From sequence record OQ834936: a stretch of 64,000 nt of DNA, one strand, 5' to 3'. Positions 4,115-52,294 of the stretch are shown here, piece after piece; positions within the stretch are counted from its first letter, which is position 1; every line of letters begins with the position of its first letter. The translations under genes and the position numbers were made by a program. Origin of the DNA: Shigella phage Henu12. Below the pieces are notes generated by a model. That model did not search any database. It was not told the DNA's origin and saw nothing but the letters and a program-made list of their open reading frames with translations.

Positions 4115-4130
4115 TTAACTTCTCCTAGAA

Positions 4131-4156: not shown

Positions 4157-4166
4157 TATAATAACT

Positions 4167-4631
4167 TTAACCAAGAACTTTCGCAAGGACATTTGCTGCC
4201 ATTGTTGAGGCTTTTGAAGCAGCAGCTACGCCAGCCTTAATGGTATTATCCTTAATCGCAGAAACCGTTGCAGTATCTGTGAAGAGGTAAGTGGTAGTCT
4301 GAGAACCACTTGTAAAGGAAAGCATAAGAGCAGTTTCCAGATTGAAAGAACGGTAAGGAGCACCGGATTGTACAATCCCTTTTGCACCTAACTCTGAAGC
4401 CATACCCATATCATAGATAGTCATCAGATTTTCTTTATGAGCAGTAGTTGAACCAACACCTTTAACGTGTTTTGTGACATTCAACATTGCACGATACTCA
4501 CGAATGTTACCATCAGCTTTCACGTTTACTGCACGAAAGATTTTACCATCGAAATTACTTTTGATAATCTCACGAACTATCTGTGATTTGTTACCGGAAG
4601 CATCGATAGCTACTGTAATAATATTTTGCAT
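4167..4631 (-). CDS. hypothetical protein (154 aa)
   Basis: ORF track; followed by a terminator. Confidence 0.5.
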   Translation of the reverse strand: MQNIITVAIDASGNKSQIVREIIKSNFDGKIFRAVNVKADGNIREYRAMLNVTKHVKGVGSTTAHKENLMTIYDMGMASELGAKGIVQSGAPYRSFNLETALMLSFTSGSQTTTYLFTDTATVSAIKDNTIKAGVAAASKASTMAANVLAKVLG

Positions 4632-4642
4632 GGTTTACTCTC

Positions 4643-5338: not shown

Positions 5339-5864
5339 ATTTTACCTTTTTAATGTTTGTTGCAAACTCACATTGAGCAAGCAGTTTCATGTTATTGTAC
5401 ACATCTTGAGAGTATTGTCTAGCCTTTGGAATCTTGTATTTGTAACCAGCATTATAAGAAGCTAGGACACGCTTCATAGAGTACTTTCCATCTGGGTTAC
5501 CATGAACCTTAGTCCAGAATAATAGCTCCTTATGAGCCTCTTTCGCTGAGTAATGGAAGTCACTTACTAGCTTCTTCTTAGCAACCTTTGGAGATACCTT
5601 GTTACGCTTTACAACAGTCTTCAAGTGATTTTGGAAAACACCATAATCATGAGTCTTTTTATTTTCTAACATGACACCTAATTGTGACTCTTGTAAGGCT
5701 ATAGCTGCTAAAGGGATTCCCCAACCTTTTCCCATCTGTCCTTCGCCATAGTTATATGCTTTTAACATATTAACTTTCTGGCTGATTGTAAGCTCTGGAC
5801 AGTCAGACGCTGTAGCTAAATGTGCTGTAAAGAATAAGCACAAACCTAAAACAAATTTCTTCAT
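5316..5864 (-). CDS. secreted lytic transglycosylase (SLT domain), candidate endolysin
   Basis: Signal peptide MKKFVLGLCLFFTAHLATA; SLT-like motifs ES, YGVFQ and YNAGY; start set at Met9 with AGGAG RBS (track start 5888). Confidence 0.55.
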   Translation of the reverse strand: MKKFVLGLCLFFTAHLATASDCPELTISQKVNMLKAYNYGEGQMGKGWGIPLAAIALQESQLGVMLENKKTHDYGVFQNHLKTVVKRNKVSPKVAKKKLVSDFHYSAKEAHKELLFWTKVHGNPDGKYSMKRVLASYNAGYKYKIPKARQYSQDVYNNMKLLAQCEFATNIKKVKYERIKTI

Positions 5865-5920
5865 TTGCACTCCTATTTTGTTAAACATGCAGATAATTAT
5901 ACACTAACCTGCACATTTTT

Positions 5921-5950
5921 CAAATAAAAAAGGCTGCCGAAGCAGCCCCT
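5921..5950 (-). terminator. intrinsic terminator GGCUGC-UUCG-GCAGCC plus U6
   Basis: Hairpin and U-tract on minus-strand RNA downstream of rIIB. Confidence 0.7.
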
Positions 5951-5965
5951 TTAGGAATTTACTTA

Positions 5966-7087
5966 TTAAACTTCACGTTTACGCTGAGAAATCAGTTCAC
6001 CAGCAGTACCTACAACTACGTGAAGTGCTTCTGAACCATCCCACTCTTTGATGATTTCACGGCGACTATTTACAATCGCTGCAACTTCATAACGGGAAGC
6101 TCGCATTTTCATGTCGTTGTAGTCAGTTGGTACTGAAACAACATCACGAGGATGAACACGAACTTTCAGGATAGTGTCACCAGAGAAGCTAGTTACATAA
6201 TCCCAAGCACCAACGTGCAGACCCTGAGAGCAGGTTACATGGCGGTTATTATCAACCATCCAACGTGGCATCTCTACAATGTTACCCAAATCATTTGGAA
6301 CTTTGCAGGTACGAGAGTCAAACAGTTTACCACCACGAGTTGTGACTTTCTTCCAACCGATGATATAACCTTCTTCATCAATTTCAACATCGAGGTGTGA
6401 TACGAAGCCCCAAAGTTGTTCTACAGAGTCTTTTGATGGGTTTTCCATCAGTTTTTCAAAGAATGCAATCAGTCGAACAAAGCCATTATCACCTTTCTTC
6501 ATCATATCCAGAATACGGTCTACCAGAGTTGAGCGCATCTGAACAGCACCGTAATACAGGTTGTCACCTTTGATGGTTACAGCACCTTGAGTGAAGTTCT
6601 CAATAGACTTGCGAATGTTCATCAGTTCAAAAGCTTTCTTGTACTCACCTGAAACAACAGCCATTACAATATCAGTGTAGTTAGGGTGAGTTGACTCAAC
6701 AATCTCAGACTCTGCACCGAAAGTCATGATAACAGAATCACCAGTAATCATGTATTCAATCTGGCTGTTATTCTGCATTGCTTCATGCAGAGCATTTACA
6801 GGTTCTGCTTTGACTGCTTCTTTAACAGCTTTTGCAACAGGTTTCTGCTTAGATACCTTCTTGGTCGCTTTAACTTTCTTAGCACTCTTTGCAATATCTT
6901 TCAGAGTCTTTGCAGGTTTTGCTTTGGTTTTCCCTGACAGCAGCGTTGCTTCATGGCGCTCTACAGCACGACCTACCGAACGGGTTGAAGTGTTATACTT
7001 CAGAGCGATTGCAGTTTTGGTCAGTTTACCTTCTTTAACCAGTGCATAGATTTCTGCGTCGATTTGTGCTTTAGTCTTAGTAGTCAT
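5966..7087 (-). CDS. rIIB: rIIB-like protein
   Basis: C-terminal half matches remembered T4 rIIB blocks (LVDRILD, ENPS, KVHPRDVVS-P-DYND-KMR); lies directly downstream of rIIA as in T4. Confidence 0.8.
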   Translation of the reverse strand: MTTKTKAQIDAEIYALVKEGKLTKTAIALKYNTSTRSVGRAVERHEATLLSGKTKAKPAKTLKDIAKSAKKVKATKKVSKQKPVAKAVKEAVKAEPVNALHEAMQNNSQIEYMITGDSVIMTFGAESEIVESTHPNYTDIVMAVVSGEYKKAFELMNIRKSIENFTQGAVTIKGDNLYYGAVQMRSTLVDRILDMMKKGDNGFVRLIAFFEKLMENPSKDSVEQLWGFVSHLDVEIDEEGYIIGWKKVTTRGGKLFDSRTCKVPNDLGNIVEMPRWMVDNNRHVTCSQGLHVGAWDYVTSFSGDTILKVRVHPRDVVSVPTDYNDMKMRASRYEVAAIVNSRREIIKEWDGSEALHVVVGTAGELISQRKREV

Positions 7088-38003: not shown

Positions 38004-38046
38004 CCTATATAGAAAATTATATAGGAACCCGTCAGAAACCTCGGGG

Positions 38047-38433
38047 GTGTTTATGAAAAAGTTACTTGTTGGTGTCATTGCTCTTGGTATGAGTTTTAGT
38101 GCAGCAGCTATGAAGATGCCTGAAGCAAACTTTAATGGTATCGCTTTAGAATCTTGTAAGATTGTACAGAAAATCGCTTCAAATGCTGGAGAGTTGACTA
38201 AACCGTTGTCTGCTCAGACTGTTCAAGAAATGACTGATAAGATGGTTGACTACAACTACCATTTTATGGGAGATTACTATGACAGATTAGCAGATGAGAT
38301 GGTCACTCAGAACGTTGACCTTCTTGATAGCAAAGGTATTGAGACTGTAGAAGATGTGAAAGACAACTTTATGCGTGAGTCTTTCAAAGGTGTTCAATAC
38401 TTTATTGAAAATCGTCACTGCATGGGTTTATAA
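38047..38433 (+). CDS. secreted/periplasmic hypothetical protein (signal peptide)
   Basis: N-terminal signal MKKLLVGVIALGMSFSAAA. Confidence 0.5.
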   Translation: MFMKKLLVGVIALGMSFSAAAMKMPEANFNGIALESCKIVQKIASNAGELTKPLSAQTVQEMTDKMVDYNYHFMGDYYDRLADEMVTQNVDLLDSKGIETVEDVKDNFMRESFKGVQYFIENRHCMGL

Positions 38434-38435
38434 TC

Positions 38436-38639
38436 ATGAAGAAGAACATCTGTAGAACAGACTATGGTGAAGTGGTCGATGATGACGGAGTAGTTATTTA
38501 CAGAGTTTGGGCTAATGATTTTGCAACCGTTGTAGAATCTTTAGATAACTACATTAATGGGACTCGTGAAAACGTCAGAGCAACTAATCTTGATTCGTTA
38601 ATAGACACTTCTCGAAAACGGAGAAAGAAAGATGAATGA
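38436..38639 (+). CDS. hypothetical protein (67 aa)
   Basis: ORF track. Confidence 0.45.
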   Translation: MKKNICRTDYGEVVDDDGVVIYRVWANDFATVVESLDNYINGTRENVRATNLDSLIDTSRKRRKKDE

Positions 38640-38931
38640 AGTCTTTGACCCATATGCACCTCAAGATTCTTGGGAGGCTGATAGAGAGGCTGAAATGGAG
38701 AGTTATGTCTGTCCAATGGATATAGAAGAGATGAAAGACTTTGTATCTTTCAGATTCTTTAAAGAGATTGAGAAGCTAAAACTTTCTCAGGCTCAAGTAG
38801 CAACTGTTTGTGAAATCTCGCAGAGTCGTGTGTCAAATATCATTAACGACCCTCAAAAGATTTCTTTAGAGTACATGCTTAATGCTTGTACAAAACTTGG
38901 TGTAAATTTTAACTTAAGGCTGGCAGATTAA
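38632..38931 (+). CDS. helix-turn-helix DNA-binding protein
   Basis: HTH-like segment LSQAQVATVCEISQSRVSNI. Confidence 0.5.
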   Translation: MNEVFDPYAPQDSWEADREAEMESYVCPMDIEEMKDFVSFRFFKEIEKLKLSQAQVATVCEISQSRVSNIINDPQKISLEYMLNACTKLGVNFNLRLAD

Positions 38932-38932
38932 T

Positions 38933-39292
38933 ATGAAACGTGAAAATGCAATCTTTAATGATAACTTTGCAATTGGCTTCTATGGTAAACCAACTCCAGC
39001 AGAGAAACTTTATGGTAATGCAATTCTGGAGACCTTGAAAGAGGTTTACACAACTGGTGGTATGAAGCATACTGAAGCAAACCGTGTAAGAGGTTATATG
39101 GCAATTGGCTCTGCAATCTCTAACATCAAACTTGAAACTACAAGTGCTAAAAAGGTACGAGACCACTTCATCAAAGAGTTGTCAGATAACCTAGATGGTG
39201 TTGAAGTCAAGGCTGTCTGGTTAGATGTTGATGGTCACAACTACACAACTTTTGTGTTTAAAAATGAGGATATCAAATGTCTCTTCCCTTAA
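38933..39292 (+). CDS. hypothetical protein (119 aa)
   Basis: ORF track. Confidence 0.5.
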   Translation: MKRENAIFNDNFAIGFYGKPTPAEKLYGNAILETLKEVYTTGGMKHTEANRVRGYMAIGSAISNIKLETTSAKKVRDHFIKELSDNLDGVEVKAVWLDVDGHNYTTFVFKNEDIKCLFP

Positions 39293-39780
39293 AACTCGAT
39301 TTATACTTTGGGTACAGTGTATTGCAAGGCAGCATACTATCACTACCAAAGTCAGATTATCGTTGTGATTTAGGTTCTGTGAAACGTGCATCACACTTTA
39401 ACAACAACATCTTAGGCTTGCAGACACTTCACAGGTGGCTTGAGGAAGATGGACGGTTGAATGAATATCTTCACCAACTAGAACTAGCCAAAGAAGAAGG
39501 GCATATGGGTTGGGATTTACTACCCCATCTGTACAAGCCTGCAAGCCCTATGGAGATACGCTATAACGAACAAGCAATTGATAGTTATAACAAATATAAT
39601 ATAACTATTGGCTCCAGAGCTTGGAAGGAGTATATGAAACTCCGTGAAATCATCATACAGACTATTGGAAAGCGTGTAGCAAAAGGTCTTGCTTATGATG
39701 AAAAGGTTGACTGGAATACACAAAAGTGTATAAAATTCTTCAAGTACGATAATGACAAGGATACTTTTGTAGAGGTTTAA
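39277..39780 (+). CDS. hypothetical protein (167 aa)
   Basis: ORF track. Confidence 0.5.
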   Translation: MSLPLKLDLYFGYSVLQGSILSLPKSDYRCDLGSVKRASHFNNNILGLQTLHRWLEEDGRLNEYLHQLELAKEEGHMGWDLLPHLYKPASPMEIRYNEQAIDSYNKYNITIGSRAWKEYMKLREIIIQTIGKRVAKGLAYDEKVDWNTQKCIKFFKYDNDKDTFVEV

Positions 39781-39781
39781 C

Positions 39782-40297
39782 ATGAAAATTGGAATTACCT
39801 TTTGCCAGCCTGAAGCAGAGTTCTTGAAATCAATGTTGTCTGAGCATATGAAAGCTACAAATCATACTGAGAAGACATTCTTGATTGACACTAACTATGA
39901 TGCAGGAACTATTGAGTTCATTGATGAAGACACTGCTGACTCTCTGTGTGTTCTTCCTGCTCACTTATTTACTCCAGAGCTACGTGACAGTCGTTCTATT
40001 GAAGTTAATCTGGAGCCAAGTATTGAACTCTACTCAGACATACAGTATCCAAGAAGCTTTAAAGCATTGCTAAACATCTTCATAGCTGATATTGTAGAGA
40101 TTGTTAAGCAGACCGAAGGTGGTCATGTAGTAACTGCTGAGTATGAACAAGGGACTATCAAACTGACAGGTGACTTTGGTTCTATGAGTTTCTTAGACTT
40201 TGTTCCAAAACACTTTGAAGATTTCCTGTCAAGTGAAGTTGATGACCTTGATTTCATACTAAAATTTGAACGCACTTTTAAGGTAAACAAAAAATGA
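39782..40297 (+). CDS. hypothetical protein (171 aa)
   Basis: ORF track. Confidence 0.5.
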   Translation: MKIGITFCQPEAEFLKSMLSEHMKATNHTEKTFLIDTNYDAGTIEFIDEDTADSLCVLPAHLFTPELRDSRSIEVNLEPSIELYSDIQYPRSFKALLNIFIADIVEIVKQTEGGHVVTAEYEQGTIKLTGDFGSMSFLDFVPKHFEDFLSSEVDDLDFILKFERTFKVNKK

Positions 40298-40566
40298 AAA
40301 TCTTAAGCGGAGTATCACAGTGTTACATGAATGATGGTGAGCCAGTTAAATGCTGCCATTGTGGAGGTGAGAACTTCCAAGGTGAAGTTTCAGAGATTGT
40401 CTCTGGCAACATCGCTGAAGAGTACACCCGTTGCTGTGGATGTGGAAAGATTTTATCTTTTTGGGCTTATGGAAGTTATGAACCACAACCTCACCTTATT
40501 TACCATCCGAACAGGATTGTGAAGCGTGTTCTGAACTGGTTCATTATCAAAGGATTTACAAAATGA
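40294..40566 (+). CDS. zinc-ribbon protein (CxxC...CxxC)
   Basis: CCHCGG and CCGCG cysteine clusters. Confidence 0.45.
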   Translation: MKILSGVSQCYMNDGEPVKCCHCGGENFQGEVSEIVSGNIAEEYTRCCGCGKILSFWAYGSYEPQPHLIYHPNRIVKRVLNWFIIKGFTK

Positions 40567-41108
40567 TTAAGCTAATTTTTGCAAGTGGTATTAACGGGGA
40601 ATTTGGCACAGCTACTGGAATGCCTTGGCCTCGTAATAAACAAGATATGGCAGAGTTTAAGAAGCAGACTATTAACCAGTTAGTCTTGGTGGGTAGCGAA
40701 ACTTGGAAGACTCTTGGGAGCAAACCTTTGCCAAACCGTGAGAACCTTGTCTTGACAAACTCTCTTGACTTTTATGGTCTGGACTTTAAAGATGATTCTC
40801 ATTGCAAAGCAAAAGTTAAGTCTGAAGCTTTTGGGGCTTTCCTAAAGTATATTGATAGTTCTATTGATGAAGATGTTTTAGTAATCGGTGGAGCCAATAT
40901 CTTAATCTCAGCTTTGCCGTATGCTGACGTAGTTTTCCACAGTGTTATTAAGGAAGTTACTGAAGAGGCTACTGTCAAGCTACCTTATGAGGGTTTCTTC
41001 CAGTACTTGTATGACACAGAGTTATTTGCTAAAGTACAGTCCAAACCCTCAGAAGATAAGTCTGTGGTGTTTGATACCTATGTTCCACAAGTAAGAGGAC
41101 GTTTCTAA
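40563..41108 (+). CDS. frd: dihydrofolate reductase
   Basis: DHFR-like N-terminus (GMPWP...F) and VIGGANI glycine motif; directly upstream of thymidylate synthase. Confidence 0.75.
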   Translation: MIKLIFASGINGEFGTATGMPWPRNKQDMAEFKKQTINQLVLVGSETWKTLGSKPLPNRENLVLTNSLDFYGLDFKDDSHCKAKVKSEAFGAFLKYIDSSIDEDVLVIGGANILISALPYADVVFHSVIKEVTEEATVKLPYEGFFQYLYDTELFAKVQSKPSEDKSVVFDTYVPQVRGRF

Positions 41109-41109
41109 T

Positions 41110-42009
41110 ATGTCACAAGCAGATGTAAGCTACAAAGCTATTTTAAACCATGTTTTATCAGTTGGTGAGTTGCGTAAAACCCGAACTGGCTCAGTGATTT
41201 CGACCTTTGCTCCACCTGAGTTCCGTTTTGATATGCGTAGTGGATTCCCATTAATCACCTCAAAACAAACATTTATGCGTCAAGTCCTCGGTGAAGCATT
41301 ATGGTTTATGAACGGTGAAAACCAACTAGGCCATTTGCGTTACAGAACTTGGGGGGAGAACGACGGAGAGCGTTGGACTATCTGGACAGATGATTTTAAA
41401 CGTTGGTTGAAAACAACCTATGCTACAGAGAATGATTGGCTGGAGGACGCTGGAGGAAGAATCTACGGAGTACAATGGAGAGCCTACGAAGGTCATGGTG
41501 GCGTTGTTGTAGACCAGTTGAGTAATCTTGTAGAGAAGATGAGAAAGTCCCCTACAGACCGTTACATGCTCGTTAACGCATGGAATGCAGCAGATATCTC
41601 AAGTAACTCTATGGCATTAGCACCTTGTCATGTACTTTTTCAGATTTATATCTCGAACACTAATGAGGTGGATTTGAAATGGTATCAGCGTTCTTGTGAT
41701 ACGTTCTTAGGGTTACCGTTTAACATCGCTTCCTATGCCTTTATCTTGGAAGTGTTGTGTAAACTGACGGGATATACACCGCGATATCTGATAGGGACTT
41801 ATGGTGATACTCAAATATACCAGAACCATATGTCGCAGGTTTTTCAACTTCTTGGTAATGAAGAGTTTCCAGCACCTAAGTTTGAAATTCATCAAGATTT
41901 GAAGTCTCTTGAAGACTTGAGACATATGACAGCAGATGACTTTCTAGGTGGGTTGAAAGGGTATAAACATGCTGGTAAGATTGAAGCACCTTTATCAGTA
42001 GGTAAGTAG
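41110..42009 (+). CDS. thyA: thymidylate synthase
   Basis: Active-site block PCH-FQ and QRSCDTFLGLPFNIASYA. Confidence 0.92.
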   Translation: MSQADVSYKAILNHVLSVGELRKTRTGSVISTFAPPEFRFDMRSGFPLITSKQTFMRQVLGEALWFMNGENQLGHLRYRTWGENDGERWTIWTDDFKRWLKTTYATENDWLEDAGGRIYGVQWRAYEGHGGVVVDQLSNLVEKMRKSPTDRYMLVNAWNAADISSNSMALAPCHVLFQIYISNTNEVDLKWYQRSCDTFLGLPFNIASYAFILEVLCKLTGYTPRYLIGTYGDTQIYQNHMSQVFQLLGNEEFPAPKFEIHQDLKSLEDLRHMTADDFLGGLKGYKHAGKIEAPLSVGK

Positions 42010-42010
42010 A

Positions 42011-42050
42011 AACAAAAAAGGCTCCCGTAAAAAGGAGCCTTAGAATTATT
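42011..42050. terminator. bidirectional intrinsic terminator (GGCUCC-loop-GGAGCC flanked by A- and U-runs) at the convergence point
   Basis: Hairpin 42020-42039 with A6 upstream and U-rich downstream; sits between the thyA stop and the stop of the 42046-42420 gene. Confidence 0.6.
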
Positions 42051-42420
42051 TCTTTTTAGTGCTTTGGGTATTTTGTTCTGTAATTGCTTGCAAAGCTGAT
42101 ACAGATTGTGCTAAGTTGTTAACACTGTCAGAGAACTTATCAAGGGTCTTAGTCAACTTAGCGTTTTCTCCCTTAACATTCTCTAGCTGAACTTTCTGGT
42201 TCTCCATCCCTAATTGTAGGAGCTTCATATCAGACTGTAAATCACGAATAGCTGAATAGTTACCTTTTGAGTAACTATCCAACTGTTGTAACTTTGTGTT
42301 GATAGAAACTTCTTGCTTTCCATCAGAGACCTGCATCGTAGTGTACATGCCAATTACACTGAAAATACCTACAACAATTGCACCAATGTTGTTCTTAAAA
42401 GCCTCTTCAATCCACTTCAT
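42046..42420 (-). CDS. membrane protein with N-terminal TM helix and coiled-coil domain
   Basis: Hydrophobic helix IGAIVVGIFSVIGMY followed by heptad-like Q/L/K-rich sequence. Confidence 0.5.
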   Translation of the reverse strand: MKWIEEAFKNNIGAIVVGIFSVIGMYTTMQVSDGKQEVSINTKLQQLDSYSKGNYSAIRDLQSDMKLLQLGMENQKVQLENVKGENAKLTKTLDKFSDSVNNLAQSVSALQAITEQNTQSTKKK

Positions 42421-42614
42421 TATTTTTCACCCTTAAAAGCCTTTTCCAAGGTATCTACAAATTCATCATCGATAGGTGTGTCTGTTTTACTCGCAAGGTA
42501 TCTTGCAAGCTTAAAGAACACTTTTTCAATCATGTATTCGCTAAGAAGAGAAAGTAGAAGCTTCCAGAAGAATGCCCCAAGATTTTTCAAGAGGATTGCT
42601 AGAATGGTTGGCAT
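42420..42614 (-). CDS. small membrane protein (64 aa)
   Basis: Hydrophobic N-terminal half, charged C-terminus. Confidence 0.5.
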   Translation of the reverse strand: MPTILAILLKNLGAFFWKLLLSLLSEYMIEKVFFKLARYLASKTDTPIDDEFVDTLEKAFKGEK

Positions 42615-42663
42615 TTAATCACCTTACTTCTTGAGCCAAGATGGTGAGAATACCTACTAAGAA

Positions 42664-42692
42664 ATATTAACACCATCTTGACAGTTAGTCAA
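42664..42692 (-). promoter_or_regulatory. sigma70-like promoter TTGACT-N17-TAATAT bracketed by a perfect 10-bp inverted repeat (CAAGATGGTG, 42637-42646 and 42671-42680)
   Basis: -10 lies inside the 24-bp loop of the inverted repeat; operator-like arrangement. Confidence 0.45.
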
Positions 42693-42700
42693 CAAGGTAA

Positions 42701-45232
42701 TTATGCAGTTCTTACCCAAGCCATTAGTTTAATGTAAGTGTTAAGAACACTGAATGCTGCACCAGAACCAGTTGCCCCAGTGTTACCACTTAATGTGTGG
42801 GCATGAGCACCAATTGTCACAGTGTGTGTATGGTTACCATCGCCAGCAGCACTACCAGAGAATCCGTGAGCGTGGTCACCTACAGCTTCTGTTGCTTGAT
42901 AACCTGCAACACCAGCCCATTGACCAGCAGCACCGACATAAGCAAACTGCTGAGAAGTGTTCAGGTAACGAACTGCAACATTATGGGCGTGACCACCCGC
43001 ACCAGCCGTTGAACCAGACACAGAGTGTCCATGCCAACCATTTAATGAAGTCCCAATCGTCCCGTGGTCATGTGTAGATGTTGTTGCAGAGAAACTATGT
43101 GTATGACTTGGAAGATGACCTACAGCAATACTCTTAGAGTCTGAGCCACCTACAGAACCAACATCCTCACCAGTTGAAGAGGCAATTCTAATAGTTCTGA
43201 ACTGACCATTTGATAGGTAAGCCCAAGTAGTTCCTGCAAATGCTGTATTAGGGTTTACATTCGATGCAAAGAACGTTACCATACCAACTGGATAGATTTT
43301 GTTAAGGTCTGTTGAGTTAGAAATAGCTGTTGCAATCTTCTGGTCAGTCTCTGCTTTAGTGTAAGCTCCAACATCTCCAGCAGAAGGTTTCTGGAAAGTG
43401 TTGTAATCAATTACCACATAACCATCAACCGCATTAGCTGGCTTAGTAGATGACACAGTAGGAGCAGAATGGACAGTAATAACTGCACCATTGACACCCT
43501 GAAACTCTACCAGAGTACCCATCGCATATGGCCCAACTTGTAAGTAAACATCATAGTTATCTCCACCAACTGAAACAGTACATACATCAACACCAACACC
43601 ACTATCTGTACTTCTGTAAAGAACAGCATTTAGACCCGATGGGTTTGCATTTCCACTTCTCAATACTAGTTCATTTTTACCACACTGATTAAATGAACCA
43701 ACGTTGAAACCTGTACCACCATAGAGTCTTAAAGTTGCTGTTGATGGTGTTTGTGGCATTGTTACAGTAGCAATTTTCACCCAACCACTGTCATAAGTTG
43801 TTGCATTCATAGCAGTAGCTCTTGAGAATACAGTATTAGCAACACTTTGTGTGTAGTACCTTGCATCAAAGTTAGATACATCTGTAGGGATAACTTGACC
43901 TTCAACTCTTAAAGGTTTATTGAGATAAGCTACATCCCTTAACTCTAGATATGTATTCACCTTATAGTTGTGAAAGCGAATAACATCAGAACTGTCGAAA
44001 TTACCAATAAACCATCTACCAGCACCAGTACTATCTTTTGCAATAACCCCGTTGCTATTCATTGGCTGGGTATTCTGAAGAACTAGTGGAACTCCATCTG
44101 CAAGAATAGTTTGAGCACCTGTGAAAGTGTTTGCAGAGTTATTTCTTGCAAGACTACTTAATGTTGCAGCCGGAATATATCTTGAGTCAAAGTTAGCAAA
44201 GTCAGATGGTTTAACCTGACCAGTCACATTCAGAGGCTTGCTGAAGAAGAACTCTGTAGAGAGTCTCATAGTTGCACCTGTCATCTGGTTAAACAAGTTA
44301 ACATCCTGCTTAGTCCCATCAGGTTGACCAAGATACCAAGACTCTGAACCAGAACCTGCGTAGGCTTGAACAAATACTGCACCGTTTGCTGTAGCTGGTT
44401 TCAATCTAAGCAAAGACCCATCAGAAATAATTGTCTGATAGTTTGTGAAGTTGTTTGCACCTGAGAAGGTATTATTTTCAGTTAGTCTTGCAAATCTTTG
44501 GTCAGCAGCATTCTGAGTGAAGTATCTAGCATCTAAGTTAGAGAAGTCAGAAGGTTGAACTTGACCAGTGATTCTTAGTGTTTTATTGATAGCAATATCA
44601 TTAGTGAGATTAACTAGGGAACCGGTCTTGTTGTTGTAGAAAATAACATCGTCACTTCCTGAATCATTACCTACATACCACCTATTAGCTCCAGTACTAT
44701 CCTGGCCTCTGATATACAACGGTGAGTTCTCAGAAGAGTTTTTTAACCTAATAGCTTCACCATTTGCTTGAATAACTTGTTGGGAGGTAAAGATGTTATT
44801 TGCAGCTAGTCTTGAGTATCTTGCATCATTTTCCTCATTTGTTCTCATACCCAAATCAGCAGGGCTTGGTTTATTTAGAGTATGGTAAACAAATGCTGTT
44901 CTTGTTGCATCAGAAACCTTCAAAGCTAACCCATTAGCGTTAATTTTAAAAGTCTTGGCAACATCCCCTAAAATAATCTCAGAAGAACCTGTTGGGTCTA
45001 ATAAATCTTTTCCACCGTAAGTTAACTTAACAATACCCAGATTACCTGTCATATTCCCGCCAGCTAATTGCAAGAATCTTTCAAGTCTGAATGAAGCTAA
45101 GAAGTTTGCATAGGTCATTTTACGGTCTTCATCACCTAGCATATCTGACCTTTTAATTACTCTCAAATGTAATAGGTCGTCTGAGCGAACTGTATCAATT
45201 GTGTTTAGTTCACTTAGTTTGTATTCAGCCAT
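42701..45232 (-). CDS. tail fibre protein with internal roughly 100-aa repeats and C-terminal His-x-His repeat domain
   Basis: Three tandem modules each ending (V/I)xGQVxPxDxxNFDxRY; C-terminal HxH motifs (HGHSV, HAHNV, HAHGF, HTHTV, HAHTL). Confidence 0.75.
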   Translation of the reverse strand: MAEYKLSELNTIDTVRSDDLLHLRVIKRSDMLGDEDRKMTYANFLASFRLERFLQLAGGNMTGNLGIVKLTYGGKDLLDPTGSSEIILGDVAKTFKINANGLALKVSDATRTAFVYHTLNKPSPADLGMRTNEENDARYSRLAANNIFTSQQVIQANGEAIRLKNSSENSPLYIRGQDSTGANRWYVGNDSGSDDVIFYNNKTGSLVNLTNDIAINKTLRITGQVQPSDFSNLDARYFTQNAADQRFARLTENNTFSGANNFTNYQTIISDGSLLRLKPATANGAVFVQAYAGSGSESWYLGQPDGTKQDVNLFNQMTGATMRLSTEFFFSKPLNVTGQVKPSDFANFDSRYIPAATLSSLARNNSANTFTGAQTILADGVPLVLQNTQPMNSNGVIAKDSTGAGRWFIGNFDSSDVIRFHNYKVNTYLELRDVAYLNKPLRVEGQVIPTDVSNFDARYYTQSVANTVFSRATAMNATTYDSGWVKIATVTMPQTPSTATLRLYGGTGFNVGSFNQCGKNELVLRSGNANPSGLNAVLYRSTDSGVGVDVCTVSVGGDNYDVYLQVGPYAMGTLVEFQGVNGAVITVHSAPTVSSTKPANAVDGYVVIDYNTFQKPSAGDVGAYTKAETDQKIATAISNSTDLNKIYPVGMVTFFASNVNPNTAFAGTTWAYLSNGQFRTIRIASSTGEDVGSVGGSDSKSIAVGHLPSHTHSFSATTSTHDHGTIGTSLNGWHGHSVSGSTAGAGGHAHNVAVRYLNTSQQFAYVGAAGQWAGVAGYQATEAVGDHAHGFSGSAAGDGNHTHTVTIGAHAHTLSGNTGATGSGAAFSVLNTYIKLMAWVRTA

Positions 45233-45250
45233 TTATCAATCCTCTTTATA

Positions 45251-45266
45251 GGGGCTGTGTAGCCCC
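45251..45266 (-). other. stem-loop GGGGCU-N4-AGCCCC between the two tail fibre genes
   Basis: Same arms as the 7138-7153 and 12000-12015 elements; 18 nt upstream of the fibre ATG. Confidence 0.5.
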
Positions 45267-45277
45267 TTTATAAATTT

Positions 45278-46486
45278 TTAAGCAACTCTCTTCCACACAT
45301 AAACAACATAAGATGGTTGTTCAACACTGAAAGCTTGTCCACCACCAGTGCTACCAGAAGTACCAGAGTGAGTGTGGTCAGCATTAGCAATGTTAACCGT
45401 AATGTTGTGTGAGTGAGCACCAATAGCTACAGAGTGGCTATGTGAGCCAATTGCTACAGAGTGAGCGTGAGCACCAACATACAAAGAGTGGTTGTGTGCT
45501 CCAATCGTCACAACGTGAGAGTGGTCACCTGCCCCATAAGTTGGTTGTGAAGTTGATGTTACACCACCATCACCACCTGCTGCAAAGTTGTTGTTACCAC
45601 GTCCACCAACGTTCTGTACAAGAGCTTGGTGAGTGTGATTGCCAGAGTTGTTTGTATTCCTTGAACCATAGTCAAAAGTACTGGTATACTTAGTTCCATA
45701 GTCAAAGTCACTTGTAGATTTTGTACCATAATCAAACACACTCGTTGTCTTATTTCCGTGGTCGAAACTTGAAGCTGACGCACTATTACCATGCGTGTGA
45801 GTTCCACCAGTTAAATAAATAGAGTGGGTGTGTGGTGGTAAGTTATTCTGAGAAAGTGCTACAGATGCACTACCAAAATTAGTTTCAACTGGTCTTGTGT
45901 CAGAATCATAACCAACTAATGCTCTACCTTTAGAGACAAGTTCCCAAGTCCCTCCGCACAGTAAATATGTAGCAGGGTTTGCAGGGTTAACTGACAAATG
46001 AATAGTACCAATTGGATAGCTATTCTGGATAGCTCTATATAAAGCATTCACAGCTTTTGCAGTAGCATACTTATCAGCATCTTCAGAGTAAGAGTTTGAA
46101 TATGTCCAGTTTTGAATATTAGACAAACCTACTTGAATCTTGTTAGTGTTGTGAGGGTTATTCTTGTCATTAATGTGATTTTGAATAAGGGCATTAACTT
46201 CATCACTTGAAAGGATTCCAAGGTTTAATCTAGCCTCAGCAACATTTACCACGTCTGACAAGTTATTAGCAGCCACTAATTGGAGTGCGTTAACAACATT
46301 ACCAAGTTCTACGTGAACCTTTGTAACACCGTGTGGGTTATTTCTTAAAGATGCGTGTGGAGCAAGTAATTGCTCAAGTGTGCATCGTTTATCCTCAATA
46401 CCTTGCTTAAGGTGAAAGATATCACTTAAATCAATAGGCAACGAGGCTTGAGGTAATGCACTAATTTGAATTTCACCTACTGGCAT
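45278..46486 (-). CDS. tail fibre protein with FDYGTK repeats and His-x-His repeats
   Basis: Repeats FDHGNKTTSV/FDYGTKSTSD/FDYGTKYTST/FDYGSRNTNN; C-terminus GAHNHS/GAHAHS/GSHSHS/GAHSHN similar to the C-terminus of the 843-aa fibre. Confidence 0.75.
   Translation of the reverse strand: MPVGEIQISALPQASLPIDLSDIFHLKQGIEDKRCTLEQLLAPHASLRNNPHGVTKVHVELGNVVNALQLVAANNLSDVVNVAEARLNLGILSSDEVNALIQNHINDKNNPHNTNKIQVGLSNIQNWTYSNSYSEDADKYATAKAVNALYRAIQNSYPIGTIHLSVNPANPATYLLCGGTWELVSKGRALVGYDSDTRPVETNFGSASVALSQNNLPPHTHSIYLTGGTHTHGNSASASSFDHGNKTTSVFDYGTKSTSDFDYGTKYTSTFDYGSRNTNNSGNHTHQALVQNVGGRGNNNFAAGGDGGVTSTSQPTYGAGDHSHVVTIGAHNHSLYVGAHAHSVAIGSHSHSVAIGAHSHNITVNIANADHTHSGTSGSTGGGQAFSVEQPSYVVYVWKRVA
45646..45772 (-). 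repeat. intragenic tandem repeat of about 27-30 bp encoding (F)DYGTKxTSx four times
   Basis: Direct DNA repeats visible on plus strand (ccatagtcaaa...); approximate coordinates. Confidence 0.5.
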
Positions 46487-46488
46487 TA

Positions 46489-46788
46489 TTAGCTCCCTTT
46501 ATATTCGTATGTGTAAAGGTTAGTCGTGCTAGTGGGTGCAGTTCCTGTTACTGTGTCAATTAATTCCCAACCATTGGAAACTAAATCAGGTTGCTCTGTA
46601 GCAAATGAACGAACCTCTCCAACCGTACCATTTACTTTGTTAAGCAAATAGTTGATAATATAGTTAAACCACTGACGACCCATAGGCTCACCCCTTAATA
46701 GGCCAGTGGCTTGAATTTCTGGAGGTGGTAAAACTTTAAGCTGGTTACCATCAGCATCAACTGTGTCTGTAGACCATGAAAGAGACAT
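46489..46788 (-). CDS. hypothetical tail/fibre-associated protein (99 aa)
   Basis: ORF track; located between baseplate and fibre genes. Confidence 0.45.
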
Positions 46789-47684
46789 TATGAACTTCCT
46801 TCTTGTTGAGATTTATCTTTTCTGCCTTTGACGATTTGGGCGACTTCTGCCATAATCCCATAATCACCACCTGCTACTGTTTCTTTACCAGCAATGAAAT
46901 AGTCGTTGCTATTGTTTGTTTTGCTGACTTTTAAATAATCTTTACTGGTACTTCCACCAGTTTTATCCACTCTTACATAACCATCTCTTACACCTGCATC
47001 TGCAAAACTACCTAATTTATTTGCTTCTAGAGAGCCACCTGTGTTGTTCGTAATAAGACCCTTGTTAGTGTTTGTTACAAACCAGTTATTGTTCTCATCA
47101 GTAATTGCCAGAGATGAATCAGCAACCTCTACAGGAGTCCAAGCAGTACCATTTAAGGTAACATCTCTAAGGATAACTGCTGAACCAATAGTTGTTGCAG
47201 CAATCTTAGAAAGTGTGTATGCTGTATCTAACACGTTATTACGAGTGTTTACACGGATAACAATTCCACCAGTCATTGGTGTGATATGTTCAAAGATTTG
47301 ACTAAACGTTGCATTGTAAAGGGTCATAACAGCCCTTTGTAAGAAGCTTGGTGTGGTATCAGAACGTCTTAAGAAAATTTGAATGTAGAGGATAGCTCTG
47401 TAAGTGTCATCATCAGCACCAATAGGTCTAGGGACTTTAATCAAAGCCCCAATGTTATCAAGTTGTGTGCCAACACCTACACGAATATTTCTTTCAGTAT
47501 ATAACTGATTACTGATATCCTCTAATAATTGTAACTCATCTGTGATAGATTTCAATAGACTCGTGTAAATAAACTTATCTTTGAATTGAGTTACAGTTCT
47601 TTCGTCCAATGTTTTCTCATAAAAGTTTTCAATCTTTTTAAACATTGTTACTCCTTGGTAATTGTATACTGTGAGCTTTCCCAA
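46788..47684 (-). CDS. baseplate/fibre-attachment protein (P2 gpI-like position)
   Basis: Synteny: follows a J-like gene and precedes the fibres. Confidence 0.45.
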
Positions 47685-49117
47685 ACAGTGTACTGGTCAC
47701 CATCAATAGTGATTCTTGAAGTTGTGTACTGCCCCTCAGCAGGTGGAATTGCTTGGTTATTTGAAAGTGCTACTTTGATTTCATTAATCTCGATACCTTG
47801 AATCACATCATAGATATGTCCATAGATTCTGTTAGGGATTACATCGTTACCAACTTTCAAAGTTCTACCGTAGGCATTAATACCTTGAACAATTCTGTCA
47901 TGAATATCCTGTTCAGGGATGTTAAGAGTTTCTTCATCGTAAAGAGAGTAAGTAACCTTGACAAAAACGTATTTAGGCATTGGTCTACTAAAGTAAACGT
48001 CGTGAGGTAATGAACCTAAGTCATATGCAGTACCAAAGATAGTACCAAATGCACGAATACCAGCAGGTTTCGTGTCCCAGATTGCCTGTGCAATATTATC
48101 ATTCTGACCACCAACTACAACAATCTTAAAAGACTTCGGAGGAAGACCATCAGCGTTTGTTGTCTCAGTATCATTTTCTACACCAGAAGCATCAGACACA
48201 CCTTGAACCCTCTTGACAGCAGCCACAATAGCGTCTAAAGTACCTACACCAGTAACGGCTAAGGATTCTAGGTAACGCTGTCTAAGCTCTGTGTCAGTTT
48301 CTTCGTTACGACCAGTTACTAAATCATATCTGTTGAATACACTATCAAGACCATCTACAGTTGTCTCAATTTCAATAAGTGTCCCTGCTAAGGTCTGGAT
48401 AGCTCCAGTTTCTTCAGCTACAACGTCACTAATTGACACAATCTTTGTAAATGTTAGGAAGGTTGTTGCAGTTACAACCATAGGGTTTGTTCTTGCAATG
48501 ATATCTCCAGTATCTTTGTAGATTCTTAATAGGGAGCCATCATTAATAACTTCAGCCTTTGCAACAATACCACCATTAATAGCATCTGCTAAGTTTTGTA
48601 GCAGGGTTGTGATGGTGTCGGAACTTGTAGGGTGATAAGAGTACTCAACGTTATCAATGATAATAACATAGTTTGCATCAGTACGTAAAGAGTTAACTTC
48701 CAAATTTGCTTCAACACAGTAAGAAGGTGTCAATGTAAATGTATTCACAGGGTAAAAGATATTACCTGCTGTGCTTCTTAATCTTGTAGTGGCTGGTACA
48801 GGAGCACCAGAATTACCAGTGAACTCAGCTTGGCCTCTTGTAGCCTGTGCCACATATCTGTATACAGCATTCAAAGCTGTTACATCATCTAAACTGAATC
48901 CTTCAGCTTTGTCAATAGTACCACCGTCATAAATTTCTGACAAGATTTCATGAACGTCTGCAAGACCCCGGCAAACAGAAGCTAAGAATAACCCAAGTTC
49001 GCTATCTTCAGAAACATCAAGGTTTGGTGAGATATCTCTATACAGACTTGCTTTAACATCATCCAAGATTTCTTGATATCTTTTTGTTTGTAAACCTGTA
49101 GTTGTTAATCCAGCCAT
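47648..49117 (-). CDS. baseplate J-like protein
   Basis: Size (489 aa) and position in a V-W-J-I-fibre order. Confidence 0.55.
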
Positions 49118-49532
49118 TAAATGTTTACCTCTGTATTAATTTCAACATCGTCAGCAGTTGTCGTTGCATTAAATCTTACTGACACTTTCCTCATTGCATT
49201 ATCCATTGTTGAAGAGTAGTTGTAGATGTTTGTTACATCTCTCGTTTCAACAAGGTAACCTTTCATATAATTATCAAAAATAGAGGTCTTCTGCTTGAAC
49301 TTAGCAAGCTGTAAATAAGGGAATCCAGCAGATGTATTAAAGAATACCTCTCCAGCCCTTAGAAGACACCTAATATGTAATCTTTGAGCTACCTGAGTAG
49401 CTTTATCGTCTTCTGGGATAATTCTAATCTGATTACCCGTAATTTTTAAATCTCCGTGAGCAACGTATACAGAATCATTTCCTAATTTAGCTACGTAGTC
49501 ACCACCAAGATTAATTGCAAAATCTGTTTTCA

Positions 49533-49533
<1 letters not shown>
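49117..49533 (-). CDS. baseplate protein (gpW/gp25-like position)
   Basis: 138 aa, between V-like and J-like genes. Confidence 0.45.

Positions 49534-52294
<2,761 letters not shown>

What the first reader, a model, noticed from the sequence alone, without database searches (positions are those of the whole stretch)
42701..46486. Two paralogous tail fibres with His-x-His repeat tips and intragenic tandem repeats
Seen: both fibre proteins end in repeated GAHxHS/HxH units followed by a similar GQAFSV/AAFSV tail. The 402-aa fibre contains four tandem FDYGTK-type repeats (DNA repeats about 45646-45772); the 843-aa fibre contains three tandem modules of roughly 100 aa. Established: HxH repeats coordinate metal ions in T4 long and short tail-fibre tips. 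Inference: the repeat regions are likely hot spots for host-range variation.
Basis: partly seen in the sequence, partly recalled or inferred. Interest (0 to 1): 0.5.

Follow-up and report, generated by a model that had tools for sequence, protein, structure and literature searches.

The report
Two T4-like phage tail fibres
These are the short and long receptor-binding tail fibres of a Moogle-type (Felix O1-like) phage, whose histidine-repeat "needle" tips were already described in 2025 cryo-EM papers. The one notable extra is that this phage took the business ends of both fibres in a single 3.2-kb swap from a Citrobacter phage.

Summary
ORFs 45278-46486(-) (402 aa) and 42701-45232(-) (843 aa) carry 9 and 7 HxH motifs (0 of 20,000 shuffles reach this). 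The 402-aa protein has four 10-aa FDYGTK-type units. The 843-aa protein has three ~110-aa modules. Both end in a similar tail.

It is known biology. Both proteins are identical to annotated fibres of Shigella phage Henu12. They correspond to the short and long fibres seen by cryo-EM in Bas63 and Sf14, whose tips resemble the T4 gp37 collar-needle-head tip (PDB 2XGF, E=7.6e-16).

The "repeats are hot spots" inference is only partly right:
- The DNA repeat copies are 41-73% identical, with no exact repeat longer than 11 nt.
- The three long-fibre modules are invariant in 120 homologue clusters.
- The most variable part is the ~33-aa non-repeat head lying between the repeat arms. In one relative it is swapped exactly at the flanking His boxes.
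- FDYGTK units (up-strand) and 9-aa His units (down-strand) co-vary as n and n+1 in 191 of 210 homologues.

The window is a chimera. It has a Henu11-like backbone, with a 3,211-nt block (42784-45993) identical to Citrobacter phage Moogle that covers the distal parts of both fibres. Metal binding and receptor are inferred, not tested.

The parts
45278..46486 (-). Short tail fibre (STF), 402 aa. Identical to Shigella phage Henu12 WKB10196.1. Corresponds by position and domain layout to Bas63 gp26, Sf14 gp52 and Moogle gp57.
   Evidence: ORF; exact look-up; phrog_2097 tail fibre 9e-137; Pfam Gp10_C 4.3e-17; 2XGF E=7.6e-16; PMC12609058; PMC11821841.
46067..46486 (-). STF N-terminal baseplate-binding region and helix-turn segments (aa 1-140). 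This is the conserved part.
   Evidence: Identity to 48 orthologues 0.73-0.99. The EDKRCT motif is noted for Sf14 gp52 in PMC11821841. Helices in the AF2 model.
45836..46066 (-). STF collar domain (aa ~141-217), equivalent to T4 gp10 C-terminal domain / gp37 D10.
   Evidence: Pfam PF21939 at aa 155-253; hits to T4 gp10 chains 5HX2 and 2FKK; AF2 pLDDT 86-93; Foldseek top hits are gp10, marginal at E~0.02-0.03.
45629..45835 (-). STF ascending needle strand (aa 218-286) with HxH at 219, 230 and 284.
   Evidence: AF2 predicts a strand at 219-242 paired with 357-380.
45650..45769 (-). Four tandem 10-aa FDYGTK-type units (aa 240-279) on the ascending strand.
   Evidence: T4 gp37 has two such units at aa 892-911 (alignment).
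45530..45628 (-). STF head (tip) cassette, aa 287-319. Predicted receptor-contacting part and the hypervariable element.
   Evidence: Lowest conservation in the protein. Replaced in relative L003 with breakpoints exactly at GNHTH and GDHxH. This head type occurs only in Citrobacter phages plus one Shigella phage. Aligns with the T4 tip subdomain 932-959 (PMC6957217).
45347..45529 (-). STF descending needle strand (aa 320-380). Five HxH at 9-aa spacing (322-360; DNA period 27 at 45413-45505) plus H371.
   Evidence: H349, H351, H358 and H360 are invariant in 72 homologues.
45281..45346 (-). STF C-terminal tail (aa 381-402, GGGQAFSV...WKRVA). It is the last strand returning into the collar.
   Evidence: AF2 strand 396-400 with pLDDT 85-93. 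T4 D10 includes residues 1010-1026 (PMC6957217). Conservation 0.79.
42701..45232 (-). Long tail fibre (LTF), 843 aa. Identical to Henu12 WKB10195.1. Differs from Moogle gp56 at only 7 residues, all after aa 816. Corresponds to Bas63 gp27 and Sf14 gp53.
   Evidence: phrog_4277 E=0; Pfam; PMC11821841; PMC12609058.
43871..44857 (-). Three tandem ~110-aa beta modules (aa 126-232, 233-347, 348-454) separated by short helices. This is the rod of the long fibre.
   Evidence: PF20744 matched three times, 2e-53; alignment; HMM count of 3 in nearly all of 120 homologues; AF2 pLDDT 75-86; Foldseek hits to T7 gp17 tip (E=2e-4), Mu gp49 (E=1.5e-5) and weakly T4 gp34.
43409..43822 (-). LTF central beta-sandwich domain (aa ~471-608). 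Variable among relatives; the ~60-aa length difference between the ~785-aa and ~843-aa LTF classes lies upstream of the collar.
   Evidence: AF2 pLDDT 76-89; PHROG hits at aa 480-627; conservation 0.33-0.59; HxH positions shift by ~59 residues between the two length classes.
42785..43315 (-). LTF tip: collar (aa ~640-708), ascending strand (709-750; HxH at 710, 721, 734, 748), head (751-784) and descending strand (785-816; HxH at 787, 801, 810).
   Evidence: Pfam Gp10_C 2.4e-7; 2XGF 7e-5. This head type occurs only in Citrobacter freundii phages. H721/H723 replace the F and Y of an FDYGTK unit that is conserved in at least 90% of homologues.
42784..45993 (.). 3,211-nt mismatch-free block shared with Citrobacter phage Moogle. 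It covers STF aa ~165-402, the intergenic spacer and LTF aa 1-816, and is set in a Henu11-like backbone.
   Evidence: next-longest run against Moogle is 204 nt. Flanks are 100% and 97% identical to Shigella phage Henu11. Henu11 is only 13-84% identical inside the block.
46489..46788 (-). 99-aa ORF upstream of the STF. Probable long-fibre platform (Bas63 gp25-like), assigned by gene order only.
   Evidence: phrog_4141, unknown function. Gene order of 489 aa, 285 aa, 99 aa, 402 aa, 843 aa matches Bas63 gp23-gp27 (PMC12609058). This is an inference.

Best explanation
The two genes encode the short fibre (402 aa) and long fibre (843 aa) of a Mooglevirus (Ounavirinae) virion. Both are expected to be homotrimers that attach to the baseplate by their N-termini and end in a T4-gp37-type tip made of three parts:
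- a collar domain;
- a long six-stranded needle, formed because each chain runs out to the tip and back;
- a small head at the far end that touches the receptor, most likely the LPS core.

The HxH motifs point into the trimer axis, so three chains give six histidines per site, each holding a metal ion as in T4. That predicts 9 sites in the short fibre and 6-7 in the long fibre.

The FDYGTK decamers on the outgoing strand lie opposite the 9-aa GAHxHSVxI units on the returning strand. The two repeat families are therefore one structural spacer, and its copy number sets needle length. The three ~110-aa modules are rod domains that give the long fibre its extra reach.

Specificity evolves by recombination at conserved joints (His boxes, the collar, the C-terminal strand), which swaps heads or whole tips. 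In this genome the distal parts of both fibres were imported together from a Moogle-like Citrobacter phage.

Shown here: sequence anatomy, homology, conservation profile, the co-variation rule and the recombination blocks. Inferred: trimer state, metal occupancy, receptor identity and the effect on host range.
For: Identity and homology:
- Exact match to Henu12 fibre proteins. 98.2% nucleotide identity to Moogle, where the genes are annotated as tail fibre / tail protein.
- Homology to T4 gp37 residues covering collar, needle and head: STF E=7.6e-16, LTF E=7e-5.
- Gp10_C scores above the Pfam cut-off in both (63.8 and 32.2 against 27), and gp37_trimer matches three times.
- Cryo-EM papers describe the corresponding fibres as 430 A and 630 A long, with collar, HxH needle and head (PMC12609058; PMC11821841).

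Metal sites: HxH enrichment far beyond chance. Iron coordination by HxH in T4 is documented (PMC6957217).

Structure models: the AF2 monomer model gives a confident collar and C-terminal strand and an antiparallel pairing of 219-242 with 357-380. The LTF model shows three beta modules plus a beta-sandwich, with Foldseek hits to T7 gp17, Mu gp49 and T4 gp34.

Repeat coupling: the number of 9-aa-spaced HxH equals the number of FD units plus one in 191 of 210 homologues, across six copy-number states. The off-diagonal cases I inspected by eye are mostly explained by degenerate FD units that the pattern missed. The T4 contacts G921-F970 and H929-G964 place FD units 892-911 opposite H980-H1000.

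Where variation lies: the heads are the least conserved part. In relative L003 the head cassette is replaced exactly between the His boxes, with 98-100% identical flanks. The head types found here are restricted to Citrobacter phages in a collection of 50,697 phage records.

Chimera: Henu11-like backbone with a Moogle-identical block.
Against: - No direct evidence here for trimerisation, metal binding or receptor.
- AF2 could only be run on monomers. The distal needle and head have pLDDT below 50 (STF), and the whole LTF tip is below 50.
- The Foldseek search with the STF model gave only marginal gp10 hits and did not return 2XGF.
- H230/H232 and H371/H373 may fall at nearly the same axial level, and H721/H723 occupy an FDYGTK position. 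The counts of 9 and 7 metal sites are therefore upper estimates.
- No gp38-, gp57A- or Tfa-type chaperone was found in the adjacent ORFs, although T4 gp37 needs chaperones. PMC11821841 also reports none for Sf14.
- The link between head type and host rests on isolation hosts written in database records and is confounded by phylogeny.
Confidence: 0.85

Rival explanations
1. One reading: the intragenic tandem repeats are themselves the hot spots. Copy number would change by slippage or unequal crossing-over, and this would shift host range, as in the T4 mutants whose host range expanded through duplications of a small domain in gp37.
For: FD-unit number differs between lineages (1-6), and HxH counts range from 4 to 11. 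The near-isogenic pair Henu11 and this window differ at 2 versus 4 FD units. There is a T4 precedent: Tetart et al. 1996, J Mol Biol 258:726. Only its title was seen, in the reference lists of PMC6669636 and PMC9603124; the details are from my own knowledge.
Against: Repeat copies are 41-73% identical at the DNA level, with at most 11 nt of exact repeat. Copy number is constant among relatives 72-94% identical, while their heads differ. A viable change needs matched gain or loss on both arms, which lie ~240 nt apart. The three LTF modules are invariant in 120 homologue clusters (PMC12609058). The 2-versus-4 difference between Henu11 and the window arose by replacement of the whole cassette, not by stepwise change.
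Confidence: 0.15
2. The 402-aa protein is a baseplate wedge or tail-pin component (T4 gp10/gp11-like), as one Moogle GenBank record annotates it, and not a fibre.
For: The Pfam hit is to Gp10_C. PDB sequence hits and Foldseek hits include T4 gp10. The KM236239 annotation reads 'baseplate wedge subunit and tail pin'.
Against: The gp10 similarity covers only the collar domain, which T4 gp10, gp11, gp12 and gp37 share (PMC6957217). The best PDB match is the gp37 tip, including the needle. Cryo-EM of Bas63 and Sf14 places the corresponding protein as a 430 A fibre.
Confidence: 0.04
3. The Henu11/Moogle chimeric pattern is an assembly artefact from a mixed lysate or co-assembly, not a natural recombinant.
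For: Both junctions fall in short stretches identical in the two parents (8 nt and 20 nt). The junction-bearing proteins are found only in the Henu12 record, and other cluster members do not share the junction. The contig on record for Henu12 is 69.8 kb, against about 88 kb for complete relatives.
Against: Recombination at conserved stretches gives the same picture, and similar mosaicism is seen in independent metagenome contigs (L003). The window also has stretches that match neither Henu11 nor Moogle perfectly, for example 48201-48800, so it is not a simple mix of two genomes. Both fibre reading frames remain intact.
Confidence: 0.12
4. The HxH-bound iron is functional bait, as in the 'Ferrojan horse' idea: the fibres would mimic iron-siderophore cargo to engage iron-uptake receptors, rather than the metal being purely structural.
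For: The proteins are rich in predicted iron sites. The idea is discussed for other HxH-bearing fibres (PMC11705849, seen only in the listing).
Against: In T4 the irons are buried in the trimer core and are needed for folding (PMC6957217). Felix O1-like phages depend on the LPS core, not on protein receptors (PMC8594841). The HxH units are the conserved parts and the metal-free head is the variable part.
Confidence: 0.02

Closest known systems
T4 gp37 long-tail-fibre receptor-binding tip (PDB 2XGF; domains D10 and D11)
   Same: Collar, a needle made of an outgoing and a returning strand with colinear HxH motifs, a small head between the arms, and a C-terminal strand that returns to the collar. 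FDYGTK-type units lie opposite 9-aa His units. Direct sequence homology: E=7.6e-16 for the STF and 7e-5 for the LTF.
   Different: T4 has 7 HxH, 2 FD units and 50-residue arms. The STF here has 9 HxH, 4 FD units and ~69-residue arms; the LTF has 6-7 HxH and ~42-residue arms. Here the tip sits on single-gene fibres of 402 and 843 aa rather than on a four-protein fibre. No gp38 or gp57A chaperone gene lies next to them. The head sequences are unrelated to T4's.
Ounavirinae fibre pair: Bas63 gp26 (STF) and gp27 (LTF), and Sf14 gp52 and gp53 (cryo-EM, 2025)
   Same: Same gene order and similar lengths, an N-terminal baseplate-binding motif, a gp37-like tip on both fibres, and beta repeat domains in the long fibre. 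Variability is concentrated in the tips (PMC12609058; PMC11821841). Moogle gp56, discussed by name in PMC11821841, differs from this LTF at 7 residues.
   Different: Bas63 is reported with 7 HxH (STF) and 6 HxH (LTF), against 9 and 7 here. This STF has the 4-FD architecture (402 aa) instead of the 2-FD architecture (391 aa) of Sf14 and Henu11. This LTF is the 843-aa class, against 792 aa for Sf14 and Henu11. Bas63 is described with five beta-helix repeat domains; here three clear sequence repeats plus one beta-sandwich were resolved.
Adhesin swapping at conserved motifs in T-even distal fibre genes (Tetart et al. 1996 and 1998)
   Same: A variable receptor-binding segment flanked by conserved GxHxH motifs at which exchange occurs. 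In the STF the head cassette (aa 287-319) is replaced exactly between GNHTH and GDHxH.
   Different: Seen here in Ounavirinae short fibres. In addition, a larger unit of exchange (3.2 kb, both fibres at once) has joints in the collar and in the C-terminal strand. The T-even details are from my own knowledge; those papers are not held in the library.
T7 gp17 C-terminal domain, Mu gp49 and T4 gp34 rod domains
   Same: The LTF modules are small beta domains of this general kind. Foldseek gives 4A0T E=2e-4 (prob 1.0), 5YVQ E=1.5e-5 and 5NXH E=4.7e-3; phmmer gives 4A0U E=0.03. Both cryo-EM papers note the same resemblance.
   Different: Here the modules are internal rod elements, not a terminal receptor-binding domain. 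Sequence similarity is marginal.

Membership tests
T4 gp37-type receptor-binding tip (collar-needle-head; 2XGF) | Significant sequence similarity to gp37 residues spanning collar, needle and head | tested here: met
   STF aa 145-371 against 2XGF chain positions 17-228, E=7.6e-16. LTF aa 700-821, E=7e-5.
T4 gp37-type receptor-binding tip (collar-needle-head; 2XGF) | Collar domain of the gp10/gp11/gp12/gp37 type | tested here: met
   PF21939 Gp10_C scores 63.8 bits (STF) and 32.2 bits (LTF) against a cut-off of 27. AF2 pLDDT 86-93 for the STF collar.
T4 gp37-type receptor-binding tip (collar-needle-head; 2XGF) | A series of HxH motifs on both the outgoing and the returning strand | tested here: met
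   STF has 3 outgoing and 6 returning; LTF has 4 outgoing and 3 returning. 0 of 20,000 shuffles reach these counts. The returning-strand histidines are invariant or nearly so in 72 homologues.
T4 gp37-type receptor-binding tip (collar-needle-head; 2XGF) | Chain doubles back at the head, and the C-terminal strand rejoins the collar | tested here: inconclusive
   The AF2 monomer model pairs 219-242 with 357-380 and gives a confident C-terminal strand at 396-400. The distal needle and head have pLDDT below 50, and Foldseek did not retrieve 2XGF.
T4 gp37-type receptor-binding tip (collar-needle-head; 2XGF) | Homotrimer with metal ions octahedrally coordinated by six histidines per site | not testable with these tools
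   Only monomer prediction is available and there is no metal modelling. Inferred from T4 (PMC6957217).
Ounavirinae STF/LTF pair (Bas63 gp26/gp27; Sf14 gp52/gp53) | Gene order wedge 2, wedge 1, platform, STF, LTF at the end of the tail operon | tested here: met
   ORFs of 489, 285-298, 99, 402 and 843 aa on the minus strand, followed by small ORFs annotated as holin-like and a terminator-like hairpin at 42018-42041. The same order is seen in L003 and L004.
Ounavirinae STF/LTF pair (Bas63 gp26/gp27; Sf14 gp52/gp53) | Orthology to fibres of classified Moogleviruses | tested here: met
   98.2% nucleotide identity to Moogle. STF is 72% and LTF 47% identical to Henu11 gp88 and gp89 over full length. 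Phrog_4277 and phrog_2097 matches.
Ounavirinae STF/LTF pair (Bas63 gp26/gp27; Sf14 gp52/gp53) | Presence in the virion as 430 A and 630 A fibres folded back along the sheath | not testable with these tools
   Known only from cryo-EM of Bas63 and Sf14.
PF20744 gp37_trimer repeat modules | Profile match above the gathering score, in tandem | tested here: met
   178.8 bits against a cut-off of 21.7, three stretches. Own HMM finds modules at 126-232, 232-347 and 347-454.
T4 gp10/gp11 baseplate pin proteins | Similarity beyond the shared collar domain (the gp10 N-terminal and middle domains) | tested here: not met
   Matches to gp10 chains cover only STF aa 78-229 against gp10 379-522, the C-terminal domain. 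The remainder matches the gp37 needle.

The most novel reading that the evidence does not exclude
The gp37-type needle may be a length-adjustable scaffold with two coupled arms. FDYGTK decamers on the outgoing strand and HxHxVxIG nonamers on the returning strand would have to be gained or lost as matched pairs (n and n+1, for n = 1 to 6, across Ounavirinae fibres, prophage side fibres and T4). The GxHxH boxes would double as recombination joints that let a ~33-aa head be exchanged even between phage subfamilies: some Ounavirinae short fibres carry a head ~79% identical to the T4 gp37 tip.

On this reading, the window phage is a natural chimera that acquired the specificity parts of both fibres in one 3.2-kb exchange from a Citrobacter phage. 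That predicts a change in adsorption specificity relative to its near-isogenic sibling Henu11.
Probability: 0.45. Interest if true: 0.45.

Novelty: already known. Interest (0 to 1): 0.25.

Why it matters
The finding as written adds nothing new. The proteins are in GenBank as tail fibres, and their collar-needle-head architecture with HxH motifs was published for this phage group in 2025.

The follow-up has practical value for phage engineering and host-range prediction in three ways:
- It locates the specificity element: a ~33-aa head between two His boxes in the short fibre, and aa ~751-784 in the long fibre.
- It gives a simple design rule: change FD units and His units together.
- It offers a natural near-isogenic pair, Henu11 and Henu12, that differ essentially by the distal parts of both fibres. 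This is a ready-made test of what those parts do.

Tried and rejected
- AF2 monomer models of both fibres. They were useful for the collar and rod modules but had low confidence in the needle and head, as expected for an intertwined trimer. They cannot test metal binding.
- Foldseek of the STF model against the PDB gave only marginal gp10 hits and no 2XGF. I relied on the sequence match instead.
- phmmer of the LTF rod and central region against the PDB gave only a marginal T7 gp17 hit (E=0.03) and a spurious RecA hit.
- A 'largest HxH gap' heuristic for extracting heads failed for the 4-FD proteins, where the FD block is the largest gap. Heads were then defined from alignments and breakpoints.
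- Bartual et al. 2010 (PMC2996694) is not held, so the needle register was derived from contacts quoted in PMC6957217.
- A literature search for 'His box' found no open paper. The T-even precedent is therefore cited from reference lists and from my own knowledge.
- Promoter and terminator scans around the genes were at background level, except for a terminator-like hairpin at 42018-42041 found on both strands.
- A baseplate-pin role for the 402-aa protein and an iron-bait function were considered and rejected (see the rival explanations).
- No tail-fibre chaperone was found among the neighbouring ORFs. The rest of the window was not scanned for one.

Full report
**What the window is**

The region 42701-46486 is 98.2% identical in DNA to Citrobacter phage Moogle (Ounavirinae, genus Mooglevirus). 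There the two genes are annotated as tail fibre protein and tail protein. An exact-sequence look-up shows that both proteins are identical to the tail fibre protein WKB10195.1 and the putative tail fibre protein WKB10196.1 of Shigella phage Henu12.

The genes lie at the end of the minus-strand tail operon, in this order:
- baseplate J-like wedge protein, 489 aa;
- baseplate protein, 285-298 aa;
- a 99-aa ORF;
- the 402-aa protein;
- the 843-aa protein;
- two small ORFs that relatives annotate as holin-like;
- a terminator-like hairpin at 42018-42041, found on both strands.

**Check of the observation**

- **HxH motifs.** The 402-aa protein has 9 and the 843-aa protein has 7. Shuffles that keep composition give means of 1.6 and 0.4, and none of 20,000 reaches the observed counts.
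- **FDYGTK-type units.** Four tandem 10-aa units occupy aa 240-279, nt 45650-45769. A second array of 9-aa GAHxHSVAI units gives a DNA period of 27 at 45413-45505.
- **Modules in the long protein.** Three modules at aa 126-232, 232-347 and 347-454 are 38-39% identical to the first and match Pfam PF20744 three times (E=2e-53).
- **Paralogy.** The C-terminal ~230-275 residues of the two proteins are homologous (26% identity, E=2e-12). Paralogy is therefore real for the tips. The middle of the long protein has no counterpart in the short one.

**What it is**

The 402-aa protein matches the crystallised T4 gp37 tip (2XGF) from collar to needle with E=7.6e-16. The 843-aa protein matches it with E=7e-5. 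Both pass the Pfam cut-off for the gp10-type collar domain.

Two cryo-EM papers from 2025 describe the corresponding proteins. Bas63 gp26 and gp27 are a 430 A short fibre and a 630 A long fibre. [quoted passage not shown] The long fibre additionally has beta-helix repeat domains like the T4 gp34 rod (PMC12609058). Sf14 gp52 and gp53 are described likewise, and that paper names Moogle gp56 as the homologue of gp53 (PMC11821841). Moogle gp56 differs from this window's long fibre at only 7 residues. The finding is therefore established biology.

**Anatomy in this phage**

T4 domain borders were taken from PMC6957217 and transferred through the alignment.

| Part | Short fibre (STF) | Long fibre (LTF) |
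|---|---|---|
| N-terminal part | aa 1-140, conserved | aa 1-125 |
| Rod | none | three beta modules, aa 126-454, then a beta-sandwich at aa ~471-608 |
| Collar | aa ~141-217 | aa ~640-708 |
| Outgoing needle strand | aa 218-286 (HxH at 219, 230, 284; four FD units) | aa 709-750 |
| Head | aa 287-319 | aa 751-784 |
| Returning strand | aa 320-380 (five HxH at 9-aa spacing, plus H371) | aa 785-816 |
| Closing collar strand | aa 381-402 | aa 817-843 |

The AF2 monomer models agree where they are confident:
- In the STF, the collar and the last strand have pLDDT 85-93, and 219-242 pairs with 357-380.
- In the LTF, the three modules and the beta-sandwich have pLDDT 75-89, with short helices between them. 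Foldseek gives hits to T7 gp17, Mu gp49 and, weakly, T4 gp34.

The distal needles and heads are poorly modelled, as expected for chains that are intertwined in a trimer.

**The repeats are one structural device**

Among the 240 homologue-cluster representatives retrieved, 210 have at least one strict FD unit. In 191 of these, the number of HxH at 9-aa spacing equals the number of FD units plus one, through six states from (1,2) to (6,7). The off-diagonal cases I inspected by eye are mostly proteins with degenerate FD units that the pattern missed. T4 itself has 2 FD units and 3 such HxH.

The T4 contacts G921-F970 and H929-G964 (PMC6957217) place FD units 892-911 directly opposite H980-H1000. 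The rule is therefore what a hairpin-like needle requires: both arms must lengthen together. I did not find this stated in the papers I could read. Bartual et al. 2010 is not held, so I cannot say that it is new.

Most short-fibre orthologues keep 9 HxH and similar arm lengths whichever unit types they use. This would fit a length constraint from the folded-back position of the fibre on the sheath (PMC12609058); that link is an inference.

In the long fibre, the second HxH (H721-D-H723) occupies the place where at least 90% of homologues have FDYGTK. Six is therefore the typical count and seven is an upper estimate of the metal sites.

**Where variation really is**

Conservation profiles over 48 short-fibre and 120 long-fibre homologues are lowest in the heads. 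Identity is 0.24-0.33 at STF aa 261-340 and 0.22 at LTF aa 751-780. The collars and the returning His units are much better conserved.

Relatives 72-94% identical to the short fibre all keep 4 FD units and 9 HxH but carry at least three unrelated heads. Against a metagenomic relative (L003), DNA identity is 98-100% on both sides of the head and ~40% inside it. The breakpoints fall exactly after GNHTH and at GDHxH.

The three long-fibre modules are constant in number in the 120 homologue clusters. PMC12609058 reached the same conclusion.

At the DNA level the repeat copies are 41-73% identical, and no exact repeat is longer than 11 nt. The repeats are therefore conserved scaffolding and recombination joints rather than slippage-prone hot spots.

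**A chimeric genome**

- Against Moogle, the window has a mismatch-free run of 3,211 nt (42784-45993) in a background of about 92% identity. The next-longest run is 204 nt. The probability of such a run at 8% divergence is about 0.92^3211, or roughly 1e-116.
- Against Shigella phage Henu11, the flanks are 100% identical over 38012-42791 and 97-100% identical from ~45974 onwards. Inside the block the identity is only 13-84%.
- The crossover intervals are 42784-42791 (long-fibre codons ~814-817, just after the last HxH) and 45974-45993 (short-fibre codons ~165-171, in the collar).
- Henu11 has the other fibre types: 391 aa with 2 FD units, and 792 aa with 4 HxH.

The window phage therefore carries a Shigella-Mooglevirus backbone together with the distal parts of both fibres of a Citrobacter phage.

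In the 50,697-record phage collection, the short-fibre head type occurs only in Citrobacter phages and, at 79% identity, in one Shigella phage. The long-fibre head type occurs only in Citrobacter freundii phages. This fits the heads being host determinants, but it rests on isolation hosts as recorded and is confounded by relatedness.

An assembly artefact cannot be excluded from sequence alone, because the junctions are seen only in the Henu12 record. However, the window also contains stretches that match neither parent perfectly.

**Mechanism, with its status**

- Shown: homology to the T4 tip, the repeat anatomy, the coupling of the two repeat families, the position of variability and the recombination blocks.
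- From the literature on relatives: both proteins are virion fibres attached to the baseplate; HxH motifs bind iron in T4 gp37; the T4 tip subdomain contacts LPS and OmpC; Felix O1-like phages depend on the LPS core (PMC6957217, PMC12609058, PMC11821841, PMC8594841). Zinc binding by an HxH motif in the T4 short fibre gp12 is from my own knowledge (Thomassen et al. 2003).
- Inferred for this phage: trimers with about 9 and 6-7 axial metal sites, heads that bind LPS-core structures, and a host-range effect of the cassette exchange.

**Verdict**

The specific "repeat hot-spot" inference is only partly supported. The feature is already known, so interest is low, at about 0.25. The modest new points are the n/n+1 coupling of the two repeat families, the head swap exactly at the His boxes, the T4-like head in some Ounavirinae short fibres, and the exchange of both fibre tips in one event, which makes Henu11 and Henu12 a natural test pair.

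Noticed in passing
window 38012-42791 and 45974-51000, against 42784-45993: The window is a mosaic. Its flanks are 100% and 97-100% identical to Shigella phage Henu11, while the 3.2-kb fibre block is 100% identical to Citrobacter phage Moogle and only 13-84% identical to Henu11. The crossover intervals are 8 nt and 20 nt long.
   Followed up: yes
window 48201-48800 (baseplate J-like wedge gene): A second mosaic patch: about 85% identity to Henu11 but 94-97% to Moogle, while the surrounding sequence is 100% Henu11-like.
   Followed up: no
proteins P0037 and P0044 (short-fibre orthologues from metagenomes): Their head cassette ([34 protein letters not shown]) is about 79% identical (27 of 34, counted by hand) to the T4 gp37 tip residues 932-965. 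This suggests head exchange between Tevenvirinae long fibres and Ounavirinae short fibres.
   Followed up: partly
window 43064-43072 (LTF aa 721-723): The second HxH of the long fibre (T-H-D-H-G-T-I) replaces the FDYGTK unit that at least 90% of homologues have at this position. F-x-Y and H-x-H therefore seem interchangeable in the needle.
   Followed up: partly
window 42046-42614 (-): No tail-fibre chaperone gene (gp38-, gp57A- or Tfa-like) follows the fibre genes. The two small downstream ORFs (64 and 124 aa) match only unknown-function phage families in PHROGs; relatives annotate them as holin-like. How these gp37-type tips fold without a dedicated neighbouring chaperone is open. PMC11821841 notes the same for Sf14.
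   Followed up: partly
locus L002 (Shigella phage vB_SflM_004, MK295205.1) 3001-6594: In this record the two fibre genes are annotated as five short 'tail fiber' CDSs. That suggests frameshift sequencing errors or pseudogenisation in that record.
   Followed up: no
window 46481-46483 (STF codon 2): The short fibre begins MPVGE, whereas 44 of the 48 full-length orthologues above 50% identity begin MAVGE and none has proline at position 2. It is a single substitution of unknown significance.
   Followed up: no
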